A DNA stretch of 49,197 bases from Escherichia phage D2: the sequence record OM475427; one strand, given 5' to 3'. Below the pieces are notes generated by a model. The model did not search any database. It was not told the origin of the DNA and worked only from the letters and a program-made list of their open reading frames with translations. The position numbers and the translations under genes were made by a program. Position 1 is the stretch's first letter, and every line of letters begins with the position of its first letter. Below are positions 7,147 to 49,197 of this stretch, one piece after another.

Positions 7147-7521
7147 ATGGCAACGAAAGAGCAAAATCTGAAACGGCTTGATGAACTGGCCCTGATTCTG
7201 GGGCGTGAGCCGGATATATCCGGGAGTGCCGCAGAGATAGCGCAGCGGGTGGCAGAATGGGAAGAGGAAATGCAGTCATCCGGCGATGATGTACAGGTTA
7301 TGAATATGGATATCCGGGAGCGGGAAACCGCGGCTCATGATGTTCGTGAGGAAACATCCGGCGCGTTAACGCGCATCAGAGTTCTGACCTGCCTCCATCT
7401 CTGTGGCGTTGATGGTGAAACGGGGGAATCCGTTGAGCTTGCGGATGTTGGTCGGGTGATTCTGATTATGTCCTCAGATGCAAAAACACACGTTGACAAT
7501 AACGGGAGGCGCTGTGGCTGA
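7147..7521 (+). CDS. FI: DNA packaging/head completion protein FI-like
   Basis: ORF between E and FII; acidic protein in the FI position. Sequence diverges from lambda FI; start chosen at MATKEQNLKRL. Confidence 0.6.
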   Translation: MATKEQNLKRLDELALILGREPDISGSAAEIAQRVAEWEEEMQSSGDDVQVMNMDIRERETAAHDVREETSGALTRIRVLTCLHLCGVDGETGESVELADVGRVILIMSSDAKTHVDNNGRRCG

Positions 7522-32969: not shown

Positions 32970-33386
32970 TTATACCTCTGAATCAATATCAACCTGGTGG
33001 TGAGCAATGGTTTCAACCATGTACCGGATGTGTTCTGCCATGCGCTCCTGAAACTCAACATCGTCATCAAACGCACGGGTAATGGATTTTTTGCTGGCCC
33101 CGTGGCGTTGCAAATGATCGATGCATAGCGATTCAAACAGGTGCTGGGGCAGGCCTTTTTCCATGTCGTCTGCCAGTTCTGCCTCTTTCTCTTCACGGGC
33201 GAGCTGCTGGTAGTGACGCGCCCAGCTCTGAGCCTCAAGACGATCCTGAATGTAATAAGCGTTCATGGCTGAACTCCTGAAATAGCTGTGAAAATATCGC
33301 CCGCGAAATGCCGGGCTGATTAGGAAAACAGGAAAGGGGGTTAGTGAATGCTTTTGCTTGATCTCAGTTTCAGTATTAATATCCAT
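32970..33386 (-). CDS. gam: Gam, RecBCD inhibitor
   Basis: 138 aa, lambda Gam ([76 protein letters not shown]...). Confidence 0.9.
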
Positions 33387-33484
33387 TTTTTATAAGCGTC
33401 GACGGCTTCACGAAACATCTTTTCATCGCCAATAAAAGTGGCGATAGTGAATTTAGTCTGGATAGCCATAAGTGTTTGATCCAT
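33341..33484 (-). CDS. kil: Kil (FtsZ-targeting host-killing protein)
   Basis: 47 aa, [47 protein letters not shown], matching lambda Kil; overlaps the gam start by 46 nt as in lambda. Confidence 0.85.
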
Positions 33485-33549
33485 TCTTTGGGACTCCTGG
33501 CTGATTANNTNTNNNNAANGNGTTTCCATCCGTCACGTAATTTACGCAT
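33451..33549 (-). CDS. cIII: cIII-like protein (N-terminally different from lambda; interrupted by n bases; boundaries approximate)
   Basis: Minus-strand ATG preceded by AGGAG, reading MRKLRDGWK..., matching the lambda cIII core (ITRKLRDGWKRLIDILNQ). An n run (33508-33521) interrupts the reading. Confidence 0.45.
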
Positions 33550-33824
33550 AAAAACTCCTGCCCGTAAGCTGGGCTGCTGAACATATAGAGACTTCTGCGC
33601 GTATTCAGGCGGTGGATGGCCGCCGGTTGTCATAACTAAGCCGCCTCGTTGAAGCGACTGAGGTATGAGGTGTTGAGTTGATTTCAGCTGGTCACACCGA
33701 CGTTCACGCGTCCGCTTCACCCCTCGCACTCCCCGGAGCCTGCTGAAATTCAAGCTGCGGATCTAAGCGGTCATCGCAACGGTGAATCAGGTGATTGCCG
33801 TATCGTTGTGTTGTTGCGACATGG

Positions 33825-33945
33825 TGATAATAGCTATTGTTATTGGCTGTATCAATACTTATTGCTATTGATTGATGTGTTTTGATATTAACTGTTTGAT
33901 AGCAAAAAGAATTAATTTTGTGACTTGTATCGCATAGCGATAACT
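33825..33945. promoter_or_regulatory. Putative leftward early promoter/operator region (OL-like)
   Basis: Contains GCTATTGTTAT (33833-33843) and TTGCTATTGAT (~33862-33872), motifs that recur in the cI-cro intergenic region, plus palindrome TATCGCATAGCGATA (33928-33942). Lies between the cIII-like gene and the cargo cassette. Confidence 0.35.
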
Positions 33946-33990
33946 GAAGGGAGGATGTGGTGGTTTTTCGAACGGTTTGTGTGATGAGGG

Positions 33991-34020
33991 GACAAAAGAA
34001 AACCCGGCACGGTGGCCGGG
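33991..34020 (-). terminator. Rho-independent terminator downstream of the ASCH gene
   Basis: On the minus strand, hairpin CCCGGCCACCGUGCCGGG followed by UUUUCUUUUGU, immediately after the stop of ORF 34025-34402. Confidence 0.5.
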
Positions 34021-34024
34021 ATTC

Positions 34025-34402
34025 TTACGCAGGTAGGTAAAGATATGATTGTGGTGGCTTAATATTACTACCTAGAGCAGAGATAGGAATTGGTTCTTTA
34101 TATCTTTCCACTTCACCAATTTTTATTGCGTAGGCCTTTTCTCTACCTGAATAATATGAGTCATAAAATTGCTTAGAAATACCTGCGTGTTTTTCCGTCT
34201 TTTTCCAAAGAGATTCCGGTTCGTCACTTAGTATTGATTCAATACGGAATTGACCAACAACTTTACCTAATGGCATCGTGGCATAAATAACAACGGTGCT
34301 AATTTGCGGATTTTTGAATATACCTTTACGAAACTCGAACCGCTTTGTTCCGTTCAATATTTTTTCTGCAAACTCAGGCTTAATGGATAATAAAACTTTC
34401 AT
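34025..34402 (-). CDS. ASCH-domain protein (125 aa)
   Basis: N-terminal G-x-K-x-x-E-x-R motif (NGTKRFEFRK) characteristic of ASCH/PUA-like domains; AT-rich; overlaps the upstream gene by 23 nt. Confidence 0.6.
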   Translation of the reverse strand: MKVLLSIKPEFAEKILNGTKRFEFRKGIFKNPQISTVVIYATMPLGKVVGQFRIESILSDEPESLWKKTEKHAGISKQFYDSYYSGREKAYAIKIGEVERYKEPIPISALGSNIKPPQSYLYLPA

Positions 34403-35453
34403 TTATCTTGCCTAACTCGATGATCTTTAAGAACTGCTCATTTGTGAGTTTAAAGTGACTCCATCGGAATGCACGCGAACCATTTAGCCCCACATGATCT
34501 ATTAAAATAGCACGATTGGGTCTCTTTGGCAAAGACAGATTGTATGTGAATCTTATAATGAAAGGGTATCGACGTTCTTTATAGATTTTTCTGAGTTCAT
34601 CTTCAGAAAATACGCTAAAACGAATACAATAGTCTACAAAACTATCTTCGCTTAAAAATTCAGAAATATTTTTTACGCTCTCAACTACACATAATGTACT
34701 GGCTACAGAACGATAGCGAGCTGGCCCTTTTTTGTCTCCGGTTCTATAGATGACAATGATATCTCCTCTTTTCATTCCCATCACAGAACGCATTCCACAT
34801 ATGTAAATTTTATGAATGCTGTTAGCATGGGATATATCTTTGACAATATCTGGTGATTCATTTACAAGTTTTGAATCAGGGAATAGTCTAGTGTGATATT
34901 CGGGATAAATCGCCAGTAAATATTTGTTGGCCCTTGATGTCATTATTCGAGGGTAATCTAATAAAATATCACCATAAGGCTCATGCAAAGACCTCGCATA
35001 TACAAACTCTTTCCCGTTATGTGTTTCTTTTTCACCATGAATGTAAAATCCGTACGTTTGGAAAAGTTTTATTAGATGGACGTGTTTGTCGAAAACAGTA
35101 ACATAAATATCATCAGATTTTGATGAAAATGCATGGTCAAACGCTTTTTTTAGAAATCGTTGTCCGCGAAGGGTGCCTTTAGATTCAAATTTGAATGTTC
35201 CTATCTTTAGATGACGTCCTGGTGGGAGCGCTGGATTAATGTCATTTGCATCATCATTTTCTTTTAGATACATAAAACCTTCGATTTTATGCTTGTCATC
35301 ATAGAGCACATAAGCTGATTCTCCTTCTCTGGCTTTTTTTTCTAACCAAAGAGGAAACTCTTTATAATCTTTTTTTAAAGAGTCAAAAAATGGGTCATTG
35401 TGATCAAAATCAGAGAATTTCTCATATTTTAAAGTATCCATTAAGTTCTCCAT
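34380..35453 (-). CDS. Hypothetical 357-aa protein, possible GNAT-like N-terminal region, unknown C-terminal domain
   Basis: Long AT-rich ORF directly downstream of cI on the same strand. Weak acetyltransferase-like motif (KGTLRGQRFLKKAF..VTVFDKHVHLIKLFQTYGF). C-terminal half has a D..ExK-like pattern (GDIIVIYRTGD..LCVVESVK). No confident family assignment. Confidence 0.45.
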   Translation of the reverse strand: MENLMDTLKYEKFSDFDHNDPFFDSLKKDYKEFPLWLEKKAREGESAYVLYDDKHKIEGFMYLKENDDANDINPALPPGRHLKIGTFKFESKGTLRGQRFLKKAFDHAFSSKSDDIYVTVFDKHVHLIKLFQTYGFYIHGEKETHNGKEFVYARSLHEPYGDILLDYPRIMTSRANKYLLAIYPEYHTRLFPDSKLVNESPDIVKDISHANSIHKIYICGMRSVMGMKRGDIIVIYRTGDKKGPARYRSVASTLCVVESVKNISEFLSEDSFVDYCIRFSVFSEDELRKIYKERRYPFIIRFTYNLSLPKRPNRAILIDHVGLNGSRAFRWSHFKLTNEQFLKIIELGKINESFIIH

Positions 35454-35521
35454 TCTAAAATGAATAATTAAGTTGTTTTACTGAATGAGCACAATGCCCG
35501 GTTGATAATTTTTAATTGGTA

Positions 35522-36214
35522 CTATCCATGCTTCCTATACGTCTGCGGCATGCTCCCAATAACTTTCCCGAAGATAAATACCCGGTTCATCTCATCTTTC
35601 TCGATCGGGTCCCACGGTGAGTAGCTTTTGTTATCAGAGATAACCAGCAGCTTATCCTTCATCATTTGCAGGCGCTTTACATGGGCTGTGTCGTCGTACA
35701 GAAACGCATAGATACCATCACCGTCGAAAGATTTAACCGTGATATCAACGAATAGAAGATCACCAGGTTCAATCGTTCCTGACATGCTGTCACCGCGTAC
35801 GTTAATGATGCGGATATTTTCTGCCTTCCTACCATCGAACATGTGACGAGCATCGTCAAACGAGTACTCAACCGAGCGTAGAACTTCTACAAACTCACGG
35901 TTGATGACTCCCGGCCCGGCACTCACTTCTATATCAAGAACGTCAATCTTGAAGTATTTGGGATGGTTGGCAGTAGGCTTCCCTAATTGTTGACCGTCAT
36001 TTCTCATCGGGCCTATGCCTGATGAGAGCCACTCTGTTCGAACACCCAATGCATTAGCTATTTCAACAATTTTTGTTGAGCCGCGCGCGTTGCCGCTTGT
36101 CAGTCTCCAGATTGTGGGTTGAGCTACGCCAGACGCCTTTGCAAGAGCGCCTTGAGACATTCCAGATTGTTCCATCGCTAGGTTTAAGCGATCAGCAAGA
36201 GTTTCTTTTTTCAT
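35522..36214 (-). CDS. cI: CI-like prophage repressor (HTH plus LexA/S24 peptidase-like domain)
   Basis: N-terminal HTH (MSQGALAKASGVAQPTIWRL) and C-terminal S24-like domain with GDSM (Ser) and VKRL (Lys) motifs. ATG at 36214 preferred; the ORF track extends to a TTG at 36250. Divergently placed against cro. Confidence 0.85.
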   Translation of the reverse strand: MKKETLADRLNLAMEQSGMSQGALAKASGVAQPTIWRLTSGNARGSTKIVEIANALGVRTEWLSSGIGPMRNDGQQLGKPTANHPKYFKIDVLDIEVSAGPGVINREFVEVLRSVEYSFDDARHMFDGRKAENIRIINVRGDSMSGTIEPGDLLFVDITVKSFDGDGIYAFLYDDTAHVKRLQMMKDKLLVISDNKSYSPWDPIEKDEMNRVFIFGKVIGSMPQTYRKHG

Positions 36215-36324
36215 AAGTTTTAATTTATACGCTTGCGTATTGATGGTCAAAACACGTTTTGCTATTGTTATGATTAATACGCATTGCTATTATTTATTCA
36301 TTGTAATACCAATAGGAATTAATA
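36215..36324. promoter_or_regulatory. Putative OR/PRM-PR operator-promoter region between cI and cro
   Basis: Perfect palindrome ATACGCTTGCGTAT (36227-36240), related ATACGCATTGCTAT (36277-36290), and GCTATTGTTAT (36261-36271) / TTGCTATTAT (36284-36293), shared with the OL-like region. Confidence 0.45.
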
Positions 36325-36552
36325 ATGACAAATCAAACCATTCAACTCGCAATCAGTATTACAGGTAGTCAAAAACGACTGGCAGATCTATGCGGTGTAG
36401 CCCAGCCCACTGTTTGGCGTTGGCTACACGGTGGCGGAATTGATGCCCGCTATGTAATGAAAATTGTCTCAGCCACTGGTGGAAAGATTAAACCAGCAGA
36501 TATTCGTCCCGACCTCGCACCATTGTTTAACGCGAGTAATTCTGCCGCCTAA
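36325..36552 (+). CDS. cro: Cro-like HTH regulator (YdaS family)
   Basis: 75 aa, HTH (SQKRLADLCGVAQPTVWRWLHGG), divergent from cI. Confidence 0.7.
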   Translation: MTNQTIQLAISITGSQKRLADLCGVAQPTVWRWLHGGGIDARYVMKIVSATGGKIKPADIRPDLAPLFNASNSAA

Positions 36553-36576
36553 TCTGCGGCGTTAACTGATAAGGCA

Positions 36577-37122
36577 ATGACTATGCAACCACTTACATAC
36601 CAACAGACTAGCGGATTTAGCCCGACTGCGGTGATAAATCGTTCTCAAACAAAACAGGCGCCAGGCCACGAAAAAATCCGTGATGCCGTTCGCGCCTGGT
36701 CGGCTGCAGATAATCAGGATGTTGTTGCCGCACTCATTGTGAATGAGTATCGGGAGCAGGGCGGCGGCACCATCGATTTTCCTGATGATGTCAGCCGTGC
36801 ACGCCAGAAGCTGTTCCGCTTCCTCGATAACAAATTCGATTCTGAAAAATACCGAAATAACGTGCGTGAACTGACCCCGGCAATTCTGGCGGTACTACCG
36901 CTGGAATATCGCGGCCACCTGGTTGAGCAGGATAGCTTCATGGCTCGGCTGGCTGAAATGGAAAAGGAACTCAGTGAGGCAAAACAGGCTGTCATTCTCA
37001 ACGCACCACGCCACCAGAAACTGAAGGAGATGAGTGAAGGCATTGTGTCGATGTTTCGTGTGGACCCGGATCTGGCTGGTCCACTGATGGCGATGGTCAC
37101 CACCATGCTGGGGGCAATATGA
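36577..37122 (+). CDS. YdaT-family protein in the cII position
   Basis: 181 aa; EYREQGGG and LTPAILAVLPLEYRGHL resemble Rac prophage YdaT (EYLRQGGG, LIPAILAILPRELRHRL); located right after cro. Confidence 0.55.
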   Translation: MTMQPLTYQQTSGFSPTAVINRSQTKQAPGHEKIRDAVRAWSAADNQDVVAALIVNEYREQGGGTIDFPDDVSRARQKLFRFLDNKFDSEKYRNNVRELTPAILAVLPLEYRGHLVEQDSFMARLAEMEKELSEAKQAVILNAPRHQKLKEMSEGIVSMFRVDPDLAGPLMAMVTTMLGAI

Positions 37123-37208
37123 CAGGTTCGGAAATGGCGAAAGCCGGTCTGCGCGAACAGAACCGACTTTCAGGTGCAAATCGTAACACACTCATTGCGG
37201 GAGGAATT

Positions 37209-38140
37209 ATGGCAAACACTGCTGAGATATTCAATTTTCCAGTGCCGGATGTGGCACAAAAGGAGCCGCGCGTGGCAGATCTCGATGATGGTTATACGCG
37301 CATTGCAAATGAGTTGCTGGAAGCTGTGATGCTGGCCGGATTAACACAGCACCAGCTTCTGGTCTTCCTGGCTGTCATGCGCAAAACATATGGCTTTAAT
37401 AAAAAACTGGATTGGGTGAGCAACGAGCAACTTTCCGAGTTGACCGGGATATTGATTCTCAACTTAGCGAGATTACAAAGTTACCTGTCAAACGGTGCAA
37501 TGAAGCCAAGTTAGAACTCGTCAGAATGAATATTATCAAGCAGCAAGGCGGCATGTTTGGACCAAATAAAAACATCTCAGAATGGTGCATCCCTCAAAAC
37601 GAGGGAAAATCCCCTAAAACGAGGGATAAAACATCCCTCAAATTGGGGGATTGCTATCCCTCAAAACAGGGGGACACAAAAGACACTATTACAAAAGAAA
37701 AAAGAAAAGATTATTCGTCAGAGAATTCTGGCGAATCCTCTGACCAGCCAGAAAACGACCTTTCTGTGGTGAAACCGGATGCTGCAATTCAGAGCGGCAG
37801 CAAGTGGGGGACAGCAGAAGACCTGACCGCCGCAGAGTGGATGTTTGACATGGTGAAGACTATCGCACCATCAGCCAGAAAACCGAATTTTGCTGGGTGG
37901 GCTAACGATATCCGCCTGATGCGTGAACGTGACGGACGTAACCACCGCGACATGTGTGTGCTGTTCCGCTGGGCATGCCAGGACAACTTCTGGTCCGGTA
38001 ACGTGCTGAGCCCGGCCAAACTCCGCGATAAGTGGACCCAACTCGAAATCAACCGTAACAAGCAACAGGCAGGCGTGACAGCCAGCAAACCAAAACTCGA
38101 CCTGACAAACACAGACTGGATTTACGGGGTGGATCTATGA
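37209..38140 (+). pseudogene. O: Replication initiator O, split by a frameshift at a ~30-bp imperfect tandem duplication
   Basis: N-terminal part (ORF to 37514) is a diverged O N-domain. C-terminal part (ORF 37412-38140) matches lambda O from DSQLSEITKLPVKRCNEAKLELVRMNIIKQQGGMFGPNKNISEWCIPQNEGKSPKTRDK... in a different frame. The junction has two adjacent homologous copies (SNEQLSELTG / DSQLSEITK). Confidence 0.7.
37588..37720 (+). repeat. ori-lambda: four iterons plus AT-rich region inside O
   Basis: ATCCCTCAAAACGAGGGA, AAATCCCCTAAAACGAGGGA, ACATCCCTCAAATTGGGGGA, CTATCCCTCAAAACAGGGGGA, then ACAAAAGAAAAAAGAAAAGATTATTCG, matching the lambda origin. Confidence 0.85.
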
Positions 38141-39150: not shown

Positions 39151-39180
39151 AGGCCTGCTGGTAATCGCAGGCCTTTTTAT
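39151..39180 (+). terminator. tR2-like rho-independent terminator
   Basis: Hairpin AGGCCTGC..GCAGGCCT followed by TTTTTATTT immediately after ren. Confidence 0.5.
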
Positions 39181-41319: not shown

Positions 41320-41643
41320 GTAATAATCACTTTTTCAACCGTGCTATGGTATGAAAGTAAAGTAACTAATATGATATTAACTATCTTGAACGAAGCGCCC
41401 TGAGCTATAGTTTTACTATAGGCACTGTCACTGGATGTTGGCATTCTTGCTCTAGTAGCTCAACAATACCCAATCACAAAACAATTCACTGATAACAAAC
41501 TTTGTGCACGTGCTTGGTTATGGCGAACAGGTGATGTTAACCTCTTGCCAGAATGCCACTCCACTTCATTAAGTATCTGAGCACCGAGAGGCTGGTCACG
41601 CCCCCATTAAAAATAATTTCTTTTGAATCGAGTGAAATAGGTT

Positions 41644-41670
41644 AGCCCGCATAAGTGCGGGCTGCTTTTT
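41644..41670 (+). terminator. Rho-independent terminator between convergent ybcK and esterase genes
   Basis: Hairpin AGCCCGC-ATAAGT-GCGGGCT followed by GCTTTTT. Confidence 0.45.
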
Positions 41671-42712: not shown

Positions 42713-43159
42713 GTTTTACATGCCTTGACTTATCGGATGAAATTCTCTTACTGAATTTAACGGCAGTTTAATAGCCGTACAACTCGTGGTAGCCAGGGAA
42801 ATATCCCAGTCGTGGTTAAGGTTGTACTTGACGGCTATTATTTCAACAATGCTTAAAGTGAGAGCTTAAGGTTATGCGTATGTTTTACAGTCCGAGTAGA
42901 TTCTGACCAATAGCTTCTTTGTATAATTCTGTCAGAAATAAATCTTGGCTTGCATGAAGTTTGAGACCTTATCTTGTTTGATTATGAATAATCAATTCGC
43001 CATAATTGTATCACCGGAGCCTGAACAACTCCGGTGACTTCTGCGCTAAACGGGGACGTTTATGCGCACACACAATCCAAACTCTCTTCTCCCTTCACAG
43101 ATGCAGAAATGCACCTGCGTTTTTTTGCATCCAGCGTCTGACCTCTGTGGAGGTGAAGC

Positions 43160-43615
43160 GTGAACCTACCACAAGATGGCATCAAACTGCATCGCGGTAA
43201 CTTCATCGCTATCGGCCAGCAGATCCAGCCTTATCTGGAGGACGGAAAATGCTTTCGCATGGTGCTTAAACCGTGGCGTGAGAAACGCAGTCTTTCCCAG
43301 AATGCACTCAGCCATATGTGGTACAGCGAAATCAGTGAATACCTCATCAGCAGGGGGAAATCGTTCGCTACCGCAGCATGGGTAAAAGATGCTCTCAAAC
43401 ACACATACCTCGGTTATGAAACCAAGGACCTGGTTGATGTCGTAACCGGCGAAATCACTACTATCCAGTCGTTACGCCATACCTCCGATCTTGATACCGG
43501 AGAGATGTATGTCTTCCTGTGTAAGGTTGAAGCCTGGGCGATGAATATTGGCTGCCACCTGACTATTCCGCAGAGCTGCGAGTTCCAGCTGCTGCGCGAC
43601 AAGCAGGAGGCGTAA
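43160..43615 (+). CDS. ybcN: YbcN / NinB-family protein
   Basis: 151 aa, GTG start with GGAGGTG RBS; DLP12 ybcN-like; shares the S-L-S-Q-N motif seen in NinB/Orf-family proteins. Confidence 0.7.
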
Positions 43616-45221: not shown

Positions 45222-46304
45222 TTAGAACTGATAAACCAGACCTACAGCGACGATGTCGTCGGTATCAATACCAGCTGTTTTGGTAAACTTACTATCGTCA
45301 ATTAAGTTGATTTTGTAATCAACAAAAGTGGACATGTTTTTATTAAAGTAGTAAGTAGCACCGACATCGACATACTTGACTAAGTCTCGGTCACCATGAA
45401 CACCAAGGTCTTTACCTTTTGACTGAAGGTAAGCAACAGATGGTCGCAGACCGAAGTCAAACTGATATTGTGCTACTGCTTCAAAGTTTTGTGCTTTGTT
45501 TGCAATATGGTTATTACCAAAAACGGTCATATTCTGAGTTTCAGAATATGTGGTAGCCAGATAGATATTGTTCGCATCATATTTCAGGCCTGCAGCCCAT
45601 ACTTCCGCATTTTTGCCGGAGGCATTGAATTTGCTCTTACCATAGGCGACCTGACCGTCAGTGCGATCTGATTTAGCATAGGTTGCACCCACGCCGAATC
45701 CTTCATACTCATAAGTAGTGGAGAAACCGAAACCATCACCATTGACTTCAGTTACGTCAGTGCGGTCATTTTTACCCTGATACTGAGCAGCAAAGTTCAG
45801 GCCATCGACCAGACCAAAGAAGTCGTTGTTACGATAAGTTGCAACACCAGTAGTGCGACCAGTCATGAACACATCTGTTTGGGTCCAGGTATCACCACCG
45901 AATTCTGGCAGGACGTCAGTCCACGCACCGATGTCGTATGCTACACCGTAGTTACGGCCGTAATCGATTGAGCCGTAATCACCAAATTTCAGGCCTGCAA
46001 ATGCAAGACGGGTTTTGTCTTTGGAAGAACCTTGAGATTCAGCACGGTTGCCTTTGAATTCATATTCCCACTGACCGAAACCAGTCAGTTGATCGTTGAT
46101 TTGGGTTTCACCTTTGAAGCCAAGACGGGCATAAGTAGTATCACCATCATCTGCATCATTAGAGGAGAAGTAGTGCTTGGCATTAACTTTCCCGTATAGA
46201 TCCAGCTTGTTACTGTCTTTATTATAAATTTCAGCTGCCTGAGCAGACATCGCCATCAGTACTGATGCAGCTACAGCAGAAATTGCCACTGTTAATTTTT
46301 TCAT
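45222..46304 (-). CDS. nmpC: Outer membrane general porin (NmpC/OmpD/OmpC family), apparently intact
   Basis: 360 aa; signal peptide ending AQA; mature N-terminus AEIYNKD..KLDLYGK; C-terminal VGLVYQF with terminal Phe. Confidence 0.85.
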
Positions 46305-46893
46305 TGTACGCCCTTTTTTTTGAACTATTATTAAAAAATGATGTCACTGCGCGATAAATATTCATCTAATCAATGCGATTATTTCAAGATGTAAGTTTTA
46401 GTTTCTCATTTAATTTGTGAAGTAGATCTCTATTTTTATCTGAACCTTTTCTATCTAATCCTATTCATGGCTCTTGTTTGAACGAAAATAAATCTATTAG
46501 CTAATTTATATTAATGGCACTTATTTATAAGCGCTCTATAATTCTTTAGCTTAATTTAAACAAACTAAAAATAACATCGGAAATTATTCATTGGTTATTT
46601 GTTGAAGTTTTCTTATGTATTTGTGGTGGTGTTTTGAACACTCGGTGGCATTCTCACAAATATCATTTAGTAGTTTACGTACGTAAAAAATTGGTTATGC
46701 TGTTAAGAGTGGTTACTTCGTCACACAGCTTAAACCCGCCGTCGAGCGGGTTTTTCCATTTTTTGAGTCTCGATATTAGCTGATAACCCAATACCTGAGT
46801 TATTCACTGACTCCGAATCTGTTACGTTTCTGCCTTTATTGCGATACGTAGTATCCCCTTAATTTACACCCGCTTTGTCTGCGAGGTGGGGTT

Positions 46894-48864: not shown

Positions 48865-48876
48865 GGGCGGCGACCT
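48865..48876 (+). other. cos: cosN cohesive-end site (lambda type), with flanking cosQ/cosB
   Basis: ...GATCCGACAGGTTACG|GGGCGGCGACCT|CGCGGGTTTTCGCTATTTATGAAAATTTTCCGGTTTAAGGCGTTTCCG... matches the lambda right-end/left-end junction with the 12-nt cohesive sequence GGGCGGCGACCT. Confidence 0.85.
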
Positions 48877-49053
48877 CGCGGGTTTTCGCTATTTATGAAA
48901 ATTTTCCGGTTTAAGGCGTTTCCGTTCTTCTTCGTCATAACTTAATGTTTTTATTTAAAATACCCTCTGAAAAGAAAGGAAACGACAGGTGCTGAAAGCG
49001 AGCTTTTTGGCCTCTGTCGTTTCCTTTCTCTGTTTTTGTCCGTGGAATGAACA

Positions 49054-49197
49054 ATGGAAGTCAACAAAAAGCAGCTGGCTGACATTTTCGGTGCGAGTAT
49101 CCGTACCATTCAGAACTGGCAGGAACAGGGAATGCCCGTTCTGCGAGGCGGTGGCAAGGGTAATGAGGTGCTTTATGACTCTGCCGCCGTCATAAAA
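49054..49197 (+). CDS. nu1: Terminase small subunit Nu1 (lambda type), 3'-truncated by window end
   Basis: MEVNKKQLADIFGASIRTIQNWQEQGMPVLRGGGKGNEVLYDSAAVIK matches the lambda Nu1 N-terminus, about 190 bp downstream of cosN. Confidence 0.9.
   Translation, partial: MEVNKKQLADIFGASIRTIQNWQEQGMPVLRGGGKGNEVLYDSAAVIK

What the first reader, a model, noticed from the sequence alone, without database searches (positions are those of the whole stretch)
33825..36324. Non-lambda immunity region: shared operator-like motifs on both sides, YdaS/YdaT-type cro/cII, no recognisable N
The red genes and O/P are lambda-identical, but the region between them is not: a different cI-like repressor, a 75-aa Cro-like YdaS-family regulator followed by a 181-aa YdaT-family protein, and no N-like ORF between the OL-like region and cIII. 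The motif GCTATTG(T)TAT occurs twice in the cI-cro intergenic region and twice in the putative OL region, together with perfect palindromes ATACGCTTGCGTAT and TATCGCATAGCGATA; these are candidate repressor/Cro operators. Without N, delayed-early expression must depend on another antitermination mechanism or on terminator-free operons.
Basis: partly seen in the sequence, partly recalled or inferred. Interest (0 to 1): 0.5.

Follow-up and report, generated by a model that had tools for sequence, protein, structure and literature searches.

The report
Common N-less lambdoid immunity switch
This is the lysis–lysogeny switch of a very common E. coli lambda-like prophage (phage 4A7 type), sitting between lambda-derived flanks; it has no N antiterminator, and no known substitute was found in it, but it is otherwise an ordinary member of a known kind.

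Summary
The region is real. It is 100% identical (33547-37454) to the immunity region of Escherichia phage 4A7/Lambda_4C10/1W/3W, and its specificity part occurs in 719 of 5,426 complete E. coli genomes.

Contents:
- an SOS-type cI (HTH_3 + Peptidase_S24);
- a two-gene defence-candidate cassette (PADLOC PDC-M11) in the rex position, followed by a terminator;
- a YdaS-type Cro and a YdaT-type CII analogue.

There are three such sites, possibly four, at each of OL and OR. They are spaced 20-25 bp and overlap promoter-like pL, pR and pRM, as in lambda. ATACGCTTGCGTAT is OR3. TATCGCATAGCGATA is not an immunity operator.

N is truly absent: I found no N/Nun/phi80-N similarity, no nut-like pair and no HK022/HK639-type put RNA. 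An arginine-rich ORF in the pL leader is not conserved as coding.

Native relatives have no terminator at the tL1, tR1 or tR2 positions, so the early genes nearest each promoter need no antitermination. How Q is reached is unresolved. A conserved promoter and structured leader upstream of ninB-Q is a candidate.

The window itself is a lambda/4A7 mosaic with non-homologous junctions, one of which frameshifts O.

The parts
33827..33855 (-). pL-like promoter, TTGATA-17-TATTAT. The -10 lies in OL1 and the -35 between OL1 and OL2.
   Evidence: 10 of 12 consensus matches. The same site is found in 4A7.
33830..33843 (.).
   Evidence: OR-trained matrix scores 13.5 bits. The homoimmune O157 prophage has ATAGCCATTGCTAT here.
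33855..33868 (.). OL2 candidate, ATACTTATTGCTAT.
   Evidence: Best non-training hit of the OR-trained matrix, 17.3 bits. It is present in inverted orientation in the O157 prophage.
33875..33888 (.). OL3 candidate, ATGTGTTTTGATAT (weak).
   Evidence: Read by eye and by its 20-bp spacing from OL2. It is not among the top hits of the OR-trained matrix.
33899..33912 (.). Possible fourth OL site, ATAGCAAAAAGAAT.
   Evidence: 13.2 bits with the OR-trained matrix and 15.4 bits with the OL-trained matrix.
33928..33942 (.). Inverted repeat TATCGC-ATA-GCGATA. Not an immunity operator; function unknown.
   Evidence: It is kept beside a different OL in PhiR47_2 and is absent from the homoimmune O157 prophage.
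34003..34020 (-). Intrinsic terminator ending the cI-PDC-M11 operon (CCCGGCCACCGTGCCGGG followed by a T-run).
   Evidence: It is conserved in Perceval and PhiR47_2.
34025..34402 (-). ASCH-domain protein = PDC-M11B, in the rex position. It is called GevA antitoxin in PV340567.
   Evidence: PDLC04425, 6.8e-52.
34380..35453 (-). 357-aa protein = PDC-M11A. It is called GevT toxin in PV340567.
   Evidence: PDLC04419, 2.1e-133.
35522..36214 (-). cI repressor, 230 aa. It has an HTH_3 N-terminal domain and an S24 autocleavage C-terminal domain (an Ala-Gly dipeptide in SAGPG, plus GDSM and VKRL stretches).
   Evidence: It is 45% identical to HK639 cI.
36222..36250 (-). pRM-like promoter, TTGACC-17-TAAATT.
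36227..36240 (.).
   Evidence: It is identical in the O157 prophage.
36252..36265 (.). OR2 candidate, ACACGTTTTGCTAT.
   Evidence: The OL-trained matrix scores 16.1 bits. It is invariant.
36277..36290 (.). OR1 candidate, ATACGCATTGCTAT.
   Evidence: The OL-trained matrix scores 19.3 bits, its best non-training hit. It is invariant.
36265..36293 (+). pR-like promoter, TTGTTA-17-TATTAT, with an extended -10 TG.
36306..36319 (.). Possible fourth OR site in the cro leader, ATACCAATAGGAAT.
   Evidence: 15.0 and 17.6 bits in the two cross-trained scans.
36325..36552 (+). Cro analogue, YdaS family, 75 aa.
36577..37122 (+). CII analogue, YdaT family, 181 aa.
   Evidence: (phrog_163 CII-like, 4.4e-67). 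53% identical to the HK639 protein. Only 24.6 bits to CP-933P YdaT, 8bt1.
33550..33820 (-). About 270-nt pL leader with no N gene. Its promoter-distal 100 nt is a conserved kil-leader element.
33453..33549 (-). Truncated lambda cIII (codons 24-54) fused in frame to the ATG of the 4A7 kil gene. It contains the run of Ns (33508-33521), which is 2 nt short.
37454..37454 (.). 4A7/lambda junction inside gene O. It causes a -1 frameshift and duplicates the QLSE(L/I)T motif.

Best explanation
**What it is.** The region is the bistable immunity switch of a 4A7-type (Bievrevirus) lambda-like phage.

**How it is built.**
- A LexA-like repressor, cI, has an N-terminal HTH and a C-terminal S24 self-cleaving domain.
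- I infer that cI binds as dimers to 14-bp sites of 6-2-6 geometry, roughly ATAC/G-N-N-N-T-T-G-C-T-A-T.
- These sites occur three times, possibly four, at OL and at OR. They overlap pL and pR and shut both off. pRM then transcribes cI together with a two-gene defence-candidate cassette (PDC-M11) up to an intrinsic terminator.
- After SOS cleavage of cI, pR expresses a YdaS-type Cro and a YdaT-type CII analogue, followed by O, P and ren. pL expresses kil, gam, bet and exo.

**Why no N is needed for the proximal early genes.**
- There is no N, nut or put.
- In native relatives no intrinsic terminator was found at the tL1, tR1 or tR2 positions, so the first early genes on each side need no antitermination.
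- A convergent-gene terminator and an antisense gene lie between ren and Q. I therefore infer that Q is reached from a separate, conserved promoter and structured leader upstream of ninB-Q, not from pR.

**Shown versus inferred.** Shown: gene families, repeated sites, promoter and terminator matches, absence of N/nut/put, and distribution. Inferred: which protein binds which site, promoter activity, and the route to Q.
For: **Identity and distribution**
- 100% identity to 4A7, 4C10, 1W and 3W.
- The cI HTH, OR and cro start occur in 719 of 5,426 E. coli genomes. The pL leader occurs in 2,231 of 5,426.

**Gene families**
-.

**Operators**
- Cross-validated weight matrices and simulations support the sites.
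- Site spacing is 25/25 bp at OR and 25/20 bp at OL.
- Promoter-like hexamers are placed as in lambda.
- A homoimmune O157 prophage keeps OR1-3 identical and changes only the spacers. It carries matching OL sites, one of them inverted.
- Heteroimmune PhiR47_2 has the same cI C-terminal domain, a different HTH and entirely different repeats.
- In HK639, whose cI is 45% identical, three ATAACC-NN-GGTTAT sites (the same 6-2-6 geometry) are spaced 24 and 25 bp next to the annotated pR.

**No N, nut or put**
-.

**Terminators**
- Four relatives carry a terminator before the kil leader (phi80, just after its N gene; HK225; KO-TP1; BHUENT6); this phage has none there.
- 4A7 has no tR2.
- A strong terminator follows ybcK, and the esterase gene runs antisense.

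**nin promoter and leader**
- Conserved in 4A7, HK639 and phage 82.

**Published**
- YdaS/YdaT as Cro/CII equivalents: PMC5917428, PMC8630535, PMC9986795.
Against: - No binding or transcript data exist for this immunity type.
- OL3 scores poorly with the OR-trained matrix.
- Terminator-like hairpins remain in the pL operon upstream of xis and int, in 4A7 as well (30867-30853 and 31464-31442 in 4A7 coordinates). Full leftward expression may therefore still need help.
- From my own recollection of the literature, not checked here: rusA in the related DLP12 prophage is reported to be silent, which argues that the nin promoter alone is not enough.
- The window's own O gene is frameshifted and lambda's tR2 is present. 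The sequence as written may not be a viable phage.
Confidence: 0.72

Rival explanations
1. The roughly 150-nt promoter-proximal part of the pL leader (33820-33670) is a new kind of cis-acting antiterminator RNA. It would play the role of HK022/HK639 put but be unrelated in sequence.
For: - The leader is kept at 96% identity or more in 2,231 E. coli genomes. It is kept next to different immunity regions and morons.
- HK639, the closest studied relative found here, has an annotated putL-like RNA in the same position.
- Terminator-like sites remain further down the pL operon.
Against: - The fold is no more stable than shuffled sequence (z = -0.78).
- Observed substitutions break two of the three candidate helices without compensation.
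- No counterpart exists in the pR transcript or in the nin leader.
- No similarity to put profiles that do detect putL and putR reciprocally.
- The conservation could simply reflect a young, recombining module.
Confidence: 0.13
2. A cryptic N-like protein is encoded in the pL leader. This would be the arginine-rich frame ...GVKRTRERRCDQLKS... (TTG at 33753), hidden by poor annotation or sequence errors.
For: - The motif resembles the arginine-rich N-terminus of lambda N (my own reading).
- The ORF runs in frame into kil in 4A7 (136 aa). Some records annotate a long 'Kil' of 129-139 aa.
Against: - PhiR68_2 has a CAG-to-TAG stop in this frame. Turner has a 1-nt deletion before the kil ATG.
- Substitutions run about 3 synonymous to 6 non-synonymous.
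- PGAP calls only the 68-aa Kil.
- The only PHROG match is Kil, at residues 60-136. There is no Pfam match.
- tblastn with lambda N, phi80 N and HK022 Nun gives only noise.
- No boxA/boxB-like pair was found.
Confidence: 0.03
3. The lack of N is an artefact of a chimeric or low-quality assembly of this window.
For: - The window alternates between lambda and 4A7-like blocks, with junctions at non-homologous positions.
- The 33547 junction is found in none of 5,426 E. coli genomes and in none of the phage records that matched this stretch.
- O is frameshifted, emrE is truncated, and Ns are scattered through the sequence.
Against: - The pL-to-kil arrangement without N lies wholly inside the block that is 100% identical to 4A7.
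- The same arrangement is found in independently sequenced phages (4A7, 4C10, 1W, 3W, Perceval, the PhiR series) and in thousands of E. coli chromosomes.
Confidence: 0.02

Closest known systems
Phage HK639 early region (NC_016158)
   Same: - It has the same three regulators: an S24 cI (45% identical), a 75-aa YdaS-type Cro and a 181-aa YdaT-type CII analogue (53% identical).
- OR has three 14-bp 6-2-6 sites spaced 24-25 bp.
- It has no N.
- It has a homologous hairpin in the cII-O gap.
- It has the same nin promoter and leader.
   Different: - HK639 carries an annotated putL-like antiterminator RNA downstream of pL. This phage has no detectable put.
- The operator half-sites differ: ATAACC in HK639, ATACGC/ATAGCA here.
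Lambda immunity region (cI/rexAB, OL, OR, cro, cII, N/nut)
   Same: - Divergent pRM and pR over a tripartite OR, and a tripartite OL over pL with similar spacing.
- An SOS-cleavable repressor co-transcribed with a defence cassette in the rex position.
- A Cro-then-CII gene order.
- An oop-like antisense element after cII.
   Different: - Cro and CII belong to unrelated families (YdaS, YdaT).
- Operators are 14 bp rather than 17 bp.
- There is no N, nutL or nutR, and no terminator at the tL1 or tR1 position. The 5' part of cIII is missing.
CP-933P PaaR2-YdaS-YdaT and Rac RacR-YdaS-YdaT modules
   Same: YdaS acts as Cro and YdaT as CII in a lambdoid switch (PMC8630535, PMC9986795, PMC5917428). 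The Pfam families match above their cut-offs.
   Different: - The repressor here is a classical S24 cI, not PaaR2 or RacR.
- YdaT is only distantly related to the solved CP-933P protein (24.6 bits).
- The TTGATT-N6-AATCAA operator is not at the cro 3' end. It is found upstream of ninB instead.
HK022 put-mediated antitermination
   Same: A lambdoid phage without N.
   Different: - No putL or putR. Profiles built from 11 put sequences find each other in HK022 (E about 3e-5) but nothing in this window (best E 0.26, at an irrelevant site).
- No Nun.

Membership tests
Lambdoid immunity region (cI / OR / Cro switch) | Divergent repressor and cro genes separated by a multipartite operator that overlaps pR and pRM. 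| tested here: met
   Three 14-bp sites sit at 36227, 36252 and 36277. pR (36265-36293) and pRM (36250-36222) matches interleave with them. This is prediction only; there are no binding data.
Lambdoid immunity region (cI / OR / Cro switch) | A second operator cluster with the same site type over pL. | tested here: met
   The OR-trained matrix finds 33828, 33853 and 33897 as its top non-training hits. pL lies at 33855-33827.
Lambdoid immunity region (cI / OR / Cro switch) | A repressor with a LexA-like self-cleavage domain (SOS inducible). | tested here: met
   Peptidase_S24 at 1.3e-18. An Ala-Gly dipeptide (SAGPG) and the GDSM and VKRL stretches are conserved. That these are the cleavage site and the catalytic Ser/Lys is my inference by analogy with LexA. 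Cleavage itself was not tested.
N/nut antitermination (lambda, P22, phi21, phi80) | An N-family protein encoded just downstream of pL. | tested here: not met
   Only 270 nt separate pL from the first gene. There is no Pfam or PHROG N match. tblastn with lambda N, phi80 N and HK022 Nun gives E of 1.8 or worse, at unrelated places.
N/nut antitermination (lambda, P22, phi21, phi80) | Paired nutL and nutR (boxA plus a boxB hairpin) in both early transcripts. | tested here: not met
   The pL and pR transcripts share no element (best 11-mer, E 0.46). BoxA-like matches are at chance level and none lies in the leaders.
put RNA antitermination (HK022, HK639) | A put-like two-stem RNA downstream of pL and/or pR. 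| tested here: not met
   nhmmer profiles (putL, putR, core) give no hit below E 0.26 and none in the early leaders. The positive control in HK022 works. A pattern scan gives chance-level hits. There is no blastn-short similarity to the HK022 early region.
YdaS / YdaT (Cro / CII equivalents) | Pfam YdaS_toxin and YdaT_toxin domains, adjacent, and divergent from the repressor. | tested here: met
   54.6 bits (cut-off 30) and 103.6 bits (cut-off 21). PHROG phrog_163, CII-like, at 4.4e-67.
YdaS / YdaT (Cro / CII equivalents) | A YdaT operator TTGATT-N6-AATCAA at the 3' end of ydaS, as in CP-933P. | tested here: not met
   No such repeat lies in 36440-36640. The only perfect copy is at 42978-42995, upstream of ninB. 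The specificity of this diverged YdaT is unknown.
PADLOC PDC-M11 defence candidate | Adjacent A and B proteins both matching the PDC-M11 models. | tested here: met
   PDC-M11A at 2.1e-133 and PDC-M11B at 6.8e-52. Defence activity was not tested.

The most novel reading that the evidence does not exclude
A very widespread family of lambda-like E. coli prophages has neither N/nut nor put: its pL leader is in about 40% of complete genomes and this immunity type in about 13%. The family may switch on its late regulator Q by a mechanism not yet described.

The best candidate is the conserved control region upstream of ninB-Q (42978-43165). It has:
- a promoter whose -35 lies in an inverted repeat TTGATT-N6-AATCAA. 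The arms are invariant and the spacer varies in 4A7, HK639 and phage 82. The repeat matches the published YdaT operator consensus exactly;
- an invariant hairpin, then a second hairpin;
- a terminator embedded in a conserved 33-codon upstream ORF.

This would make Q expression a separately regulated, possibly YdaT-controlled and translation-attenuated step, rather than a read-through from pR.
Probability: 0.2. Interest if true: 0.6.

Novelty: new member of a known kind. Interest (0 to 1): 0.3.

Why it matters
As an immunity region it is routine: another heteroimmune lambdoid switch, already deposited in several phage genomes and built from published families. Its value is practical. It gives explicit operator and promoter predictions for an immunity type carried by roughly one in eight sequenced E. 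coli, including O157:H7 and the Crohn's-associated strain LF82.

The open point is how such N-less, put-less phages time Q and late-gene expression. If the nin-leader control region is the answer, it would add a third solution to the delayed-early-to-late transition in lambdoid phages, beside N and put. It might also bear on the reported silence of rusA and Q in the DLP12 prophage.

Tried and rejected
- **Rfam.** A gathering-threshold scan of the whole window found nothing. A permissive scan of 33300-37300 gave only eukaryotic-family noise.
- **HK022 similarity.** blastn-short against the HK022 early region gave only short matches at E 0.004 or worse; the only ones in the early region fall in the S24 part of cI, and none in the pL or pR leaders.
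- **put.** A degenerate pattern recovered put sequences from viral contigs. The MAFFT alignment of putL and putR was mis-registered, so I dropped the covariance model and used nhmmer profiles instead. These were negative, with a working positive control.
- **Arginine-rich leader ORF as N.** Rejected on a stop codon, an indel and the substitution pattern in relatives.
- **Shared element between the pL and pR transcripts, or between the pL and nin leaders.** None found.
- **boxA scan.** Chance level.
- **Fold of the pL leader and of the cro-end hairpin.** Not more stable than shuffles.
- **TATCGCATAGCGATA as an operator.** Rejected by comparative context.
- **CP-933P YdaT operator near cro.** With up to two mismatches the hits are at chance level (5 hits against 3.0 expected).
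- **Literature.** Searches for GevT/GevA and for the PhiR phages found no paper. King et al. 2011 on HK639 is not held. What I say about it rests on the GenBank annotation and my own recollection.
- **The 33547 junction.** Searched for in E. coli genomes and absent.
Full report
**What is there**

Window 33547-37454 is 100% identical, without gaps, to Escherichia phage 4A7 (NC_049946, genus Bievrevirus). Phages Lambda_4C10, 1W and 3W are 100% identical over 33547-37200, the part compared. Perceval, a prophage of strain LF82, shares the same control regions with a different gene cassette beside cI.

Read leftward from cro, the region contains:
- cI at 35522-36214(-), with HTH_3 and Peptidase_S24 domains;
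- a 357-aa protein and a 125-aa ASCH protein. These match the PADLOC defence candidate PDC-M11A/B and are labelled GevT/GevA in record PV340567;
- an intrinsic terminator at 34020-34003;
- the OL/pL region.

Rightward lie a 75-aa YdaS-family Cro and a 181-aa YdaT-family protein, which PHROGs classes as a CII-like activator. YdaS and YdaT as functional equivalents of Cro and CII are published for Rac and CP-933P (PMC5917428, PMC8630535, PMC9986795).

This immunity type is common. The cI HTH, OR and cro start occur in 719 of 5,426 complete E. coli genomes at 90% identity or more.

**The operators**

GCTATTGTTAT occurs once on each side, not twice. The repeated unit is a 14-bp site with two 6-bp half-sites and a 2-bp centre.

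| Cluster | Site | Start | Sequence |
|---|---|---|---|
| OR | OR3 | 36227 | ATACGCTTGCGTAT |
| OR | OR2 | 36252 | ACACGTTTTGCTAT |
| OR | OR1 | 36277 | ATACGCATTGCTAT |
| OL | OL1 | 33830 | ATAGCTATTGTTAT |
| OL | OL2 | 33855 | ATACTTATTGCTAT |
| OL | OL3 | 33875 | ATGTGTTTTGATAT |

Spacing is 25 and 25 bp at OR, and 25 and 20 bp at OL. Lambda's annotated operators are spaced 23 and 24 bp at OR, and 24 and 20 bp at OL.

The evidence that these sites exceed chance:
- A weight matrix trained only on the OR sites ranks OL2, a site at 36304-36321, OL1 and a site at 33897-33914 as its four best non-training hits in 98 kb of both strands. The matrix trained on OL returns OR1, 36304-36321, OR2 and 33897-33914.
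- Simulated sequence gives 1.24 hits at that threshold, anywhere in the window.
- OL3 is the weakest call. The two extra sites may be fourth operators.
- By contrast, 6+6 inverted repeats with a 2-3-nt spacer are frequent, 40 in the window. The two 'palindromes' alone are therefore weak evidence.

Promoter-like hexamers sit where lambda's do:
- pL, TTGATA-17-TATTAT, over OL1 and OL2;
- pR, TTGTTA-17-TATTAT, over OR2 and OR1;
- pRM, TTGACC-17-TAAATT, next to OR2 and into OR3.

Comparison with relatives supports the assignment:
- A homoimmune O157:H7 prophage, whose cI is 98% identical, keeps OR1-3 unchanged. Its substitutions fall only in the spacers. Its OL carries ATACTAATTGCTAT and ATAGCCATTGCTAT, one of them inverted relative to the window.
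- PhiR47_2 has the same cI C-terminal domain but a different HTH. Its repeats in both control regions are entirely different (AAAACAAC...GTTGTT type).
- HK639 has three ATAACC-NN-GGTTAT sites spaced 24 and 25 bp next to its annotated pR.

TATCGCATAGCGATA (33928-33942) does not fit the matrix. It survives beside the different OL of PhiR47_2 and is missing from the homoimmune O157 prophage. It is therefore not an immunity operator, and I have no function for it.

**N is truly absent**

The pL start, near 33820, is only about 270 nt from the first ATG, at 33549. Several tests all came back negative:
- No Pfam or PHROG N family matches.
- tblastn with lambda N, phi80 N and HK022 Nun gives only noise.
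- The leader has an in-frame arginine-rich stretch (GVKRTRERRCDQLKS) that looks like an N arginine-rich motif. In PhiR68_2 that frame has a TAG stop, and Turner has a 1-nt deletion before the kil ATG. Substitutions run roughly 3 synonymous to 6 non-synonymous. PGAP calls only the 68-aa KilR-like Kil.
- The run of Ns (33508-33521) lies in a lambda cIII fragment. It is 2 nt shorter than lambda, which explains the apparent frameshift there.
- No nut-like pair exists. The pL and pR transcripts share nothing beyond chance, and boxA-like matches are at chance level.
- No put exists. Profiles built from 11 putL and putR sequences detect each other in HK022 at E about 3e-5. They find nothing relevant in the window.

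HK639 is the closest studied relative I found. Its cI is 45% and its YdaT-type CII analogue 53% identical, and it also lacks N. GenBank annotates a putL-like antiterminator RNA after its pL. This phage differs from HK639 precisely in lacking that RNA.

**How it can do without N**

In phi80, HK225, Klebsiella phage KO-TP1 and Enterobacter phage BHUENT6, a conserved element upstream of kil is preceded by a clear intrinsic terminator. In phi80 that terminator follows the N gene. The conserved element is CATACC...GTTATGACAACCGGCGGCCATCCACCGCC, with an upstream ORF beginning MTTGGHPPP. In this phage the terminator is absent, and the leader runs straight into the element.

On the right, cro and ydaT are 24 nt apart. 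ydaT, O, P and ren are contiguous or nearly so.

The strong tR2 hairpin at 39151-39174 lies in a block that is 100% lambda. Native 4A7 has no terminator after ren. So the early genes nearest each promoter (kil, gam, bet and exo on the left; cro to ren on the right) have no terminator-like site ahead of them in native 4A7, apart from two weak 5-6-bp matches inside coding sequence.

This does not explain everything:
- Terminator-like sites remain before xis and int.
- Between ren and Q, 4A7 has a strong terminator after ybcK (41643-41664 in the window), and a 1-kb gene lies on the opposite strand.

Upstream of ninB-Q there is a promoter-like site, TTGATT-17-CATAAT, at 42978-43006. The phage 82 record X92588 already annotates it as a putative promoter. 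Its features:
- Its -35 lies in the inverted repeat TTGATT-N6-AATCAA.
- The arms are invariant and the spacer differs in 4A7, HK639 and phage 82.
- Homology between these phages begins exactly there.
- The repeat equals the footprinted operator of CP-933P YdaT (PMC9986795). This phage's YdaT is only distantly related to that protein.
- The roughly 150-nt leader that follows is nearly invariant. It has a 10-bp hairpin, a second hairpin, a C-rich stretch, and a terminator-like hairpin inside a conserved 33-codon upstream ORF.

I consider a separately controlled Q operon the most likely route to late expression. This is inference only.

**The window itself**

The window alternates between lambda and 4A7-like blocks. 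Three junctions are not at homologous positions:
- 33546/33547 joins lambda cIII codon 24 to the kil ATG.
- 37454 lies inside O, gives a -1 frameshift and duplicates the QLSE(L/I)T motif.
- 39291/39292 joins lambda ninB codon 31 to emrE codon 30.

The first junction is absent from all 5,426 E. coli genomes and from the phage collection. Scattered Ns occur at about a dozen spots.

The window is thus a hybrid: a laboratory or natural recombinant, or a consensus of a mixed population. As written it may not be viable. This does not affect the immunity block, which is intact and native.

**Verdict**

The object is a new, uncharacterised but ordinary member of the lambdoid immunity-region family. 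It belongs to the cI(S24)-YdaS-YdaT subclass also seen in HK639. The absence of N is real and shared by thousands of prophages. The mechanism that replaces N for late-gene activation is not known.

Noticed in passing
window 42978-43165 (also L138 42998-43185, L136 8742-8930, L011 50-240): A conserved control region lies upstream of ninB(ybcN)-rusA-Q.
- It has a promoter-like site, TTGATT-17-CATAAT.
- It has an inverted repeat TTGATT-N6-AATCAA with invariant arms and a variable spacer in three phages. The repeat is identical to the CP-933P YdaT operator consensus.
- It has an invariant 10-bp hairpin and a second hairpin.
- It has a terminator-like hairpin (43099-43122) inside a conserved 33-codon upstream ORF.

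It may be how N-less phages control Q.
   Followed up: partly
window 33568-33668 (-); L004 3001-3057; L003 2501-2561; L009 2501-2583: A strongly conserved element lies upstream of kil. It has an upstream ORF starting MTTGGHPPP (ATG at 33633) and a hairpin GGCGG-CCATCCA-CCGCC. It is invariant from E. coli phages to phi80, HK225 and Klebsiella and Enterobacter phages. In those four phages (phi80, HK225, KO-TP1, BHUENT6) a terminator precedes it. The polyproline leader peptide suggests translational control of kil.
   Followed up: partly
whole window; junctions at 7496/7497, 19396/19397, 30374/30375, 33546/33547, 37454, 39291/39292, about 47415, 47896, 48676/48677: The window is a patchwork of lambda (J02459) and 4A7-like blocks and runs through cos (48865-49197 = lambda 1-334). 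Three junctions are non-homologous: O is frameshifted, emrE is fused to the first 31 codons of lambda ninB, and cIII is reduced to 32 codons. Ns are scattered at about a dozen spots. This suggests a hybrid phage or a mixed-population consensus.
   Followed up: yes
window 37141-37173 and 37206-37234 (-): A hairpin lies in the cII(ydaT)-O gap. It is kept by compensatory changes in the window, HK639 and KO-TP1. A leftward promoter-like site, TTGAAT-17-CATAAT, sits at the start of O. Together they look like an oop-type antisense RNA. HK639 annotates the same spot as 'M3-like RNA'.
   Followed up: partly
window 34025-35453 (-): The rex position holds PADLOC candidate system PDC-M11 (A is a 357-aa protein with an acetyltransferase-like N-terminus; B is an ASCH protein). 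Relatives with the same or similar switch carry other cargo there: SIR2, HipA-like, a lipoprotein, a transmembrane protein. It is a defence and moron hotspot.
   Followed up: partly
window 36544-36560 (+): A GC hairpin, GCCGC-CTAATCT-GCGGC, spans the cro stop codon. The stem is conserved in HK639 (GCCGC-TTAACG-GCGGC). No U-run follows it. Its function is unknown.
   Followed up: no
window 36319-36336 (+): TTAATAATGACAAATCAA overlaps the cro start codon and is two mismatches from the YdaT consensus repeat. The homoimmune O157 prophage has TTGATAATGACAAATCAA, one mismatch. At this tolerance the hits are at chance level for the window.
   Followed up: partly
window 45222-46304 (-), 46514-46542 (+), 46732-46753 (+): An OmpC/NmpC-like porin gene is inserted between Q and a likely late promoter (ATGGCA-17-TATAAT). 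A terminator-like hairpin follows, ahead of the holin gene. The layout resembles DLP12.
   Followed up: no
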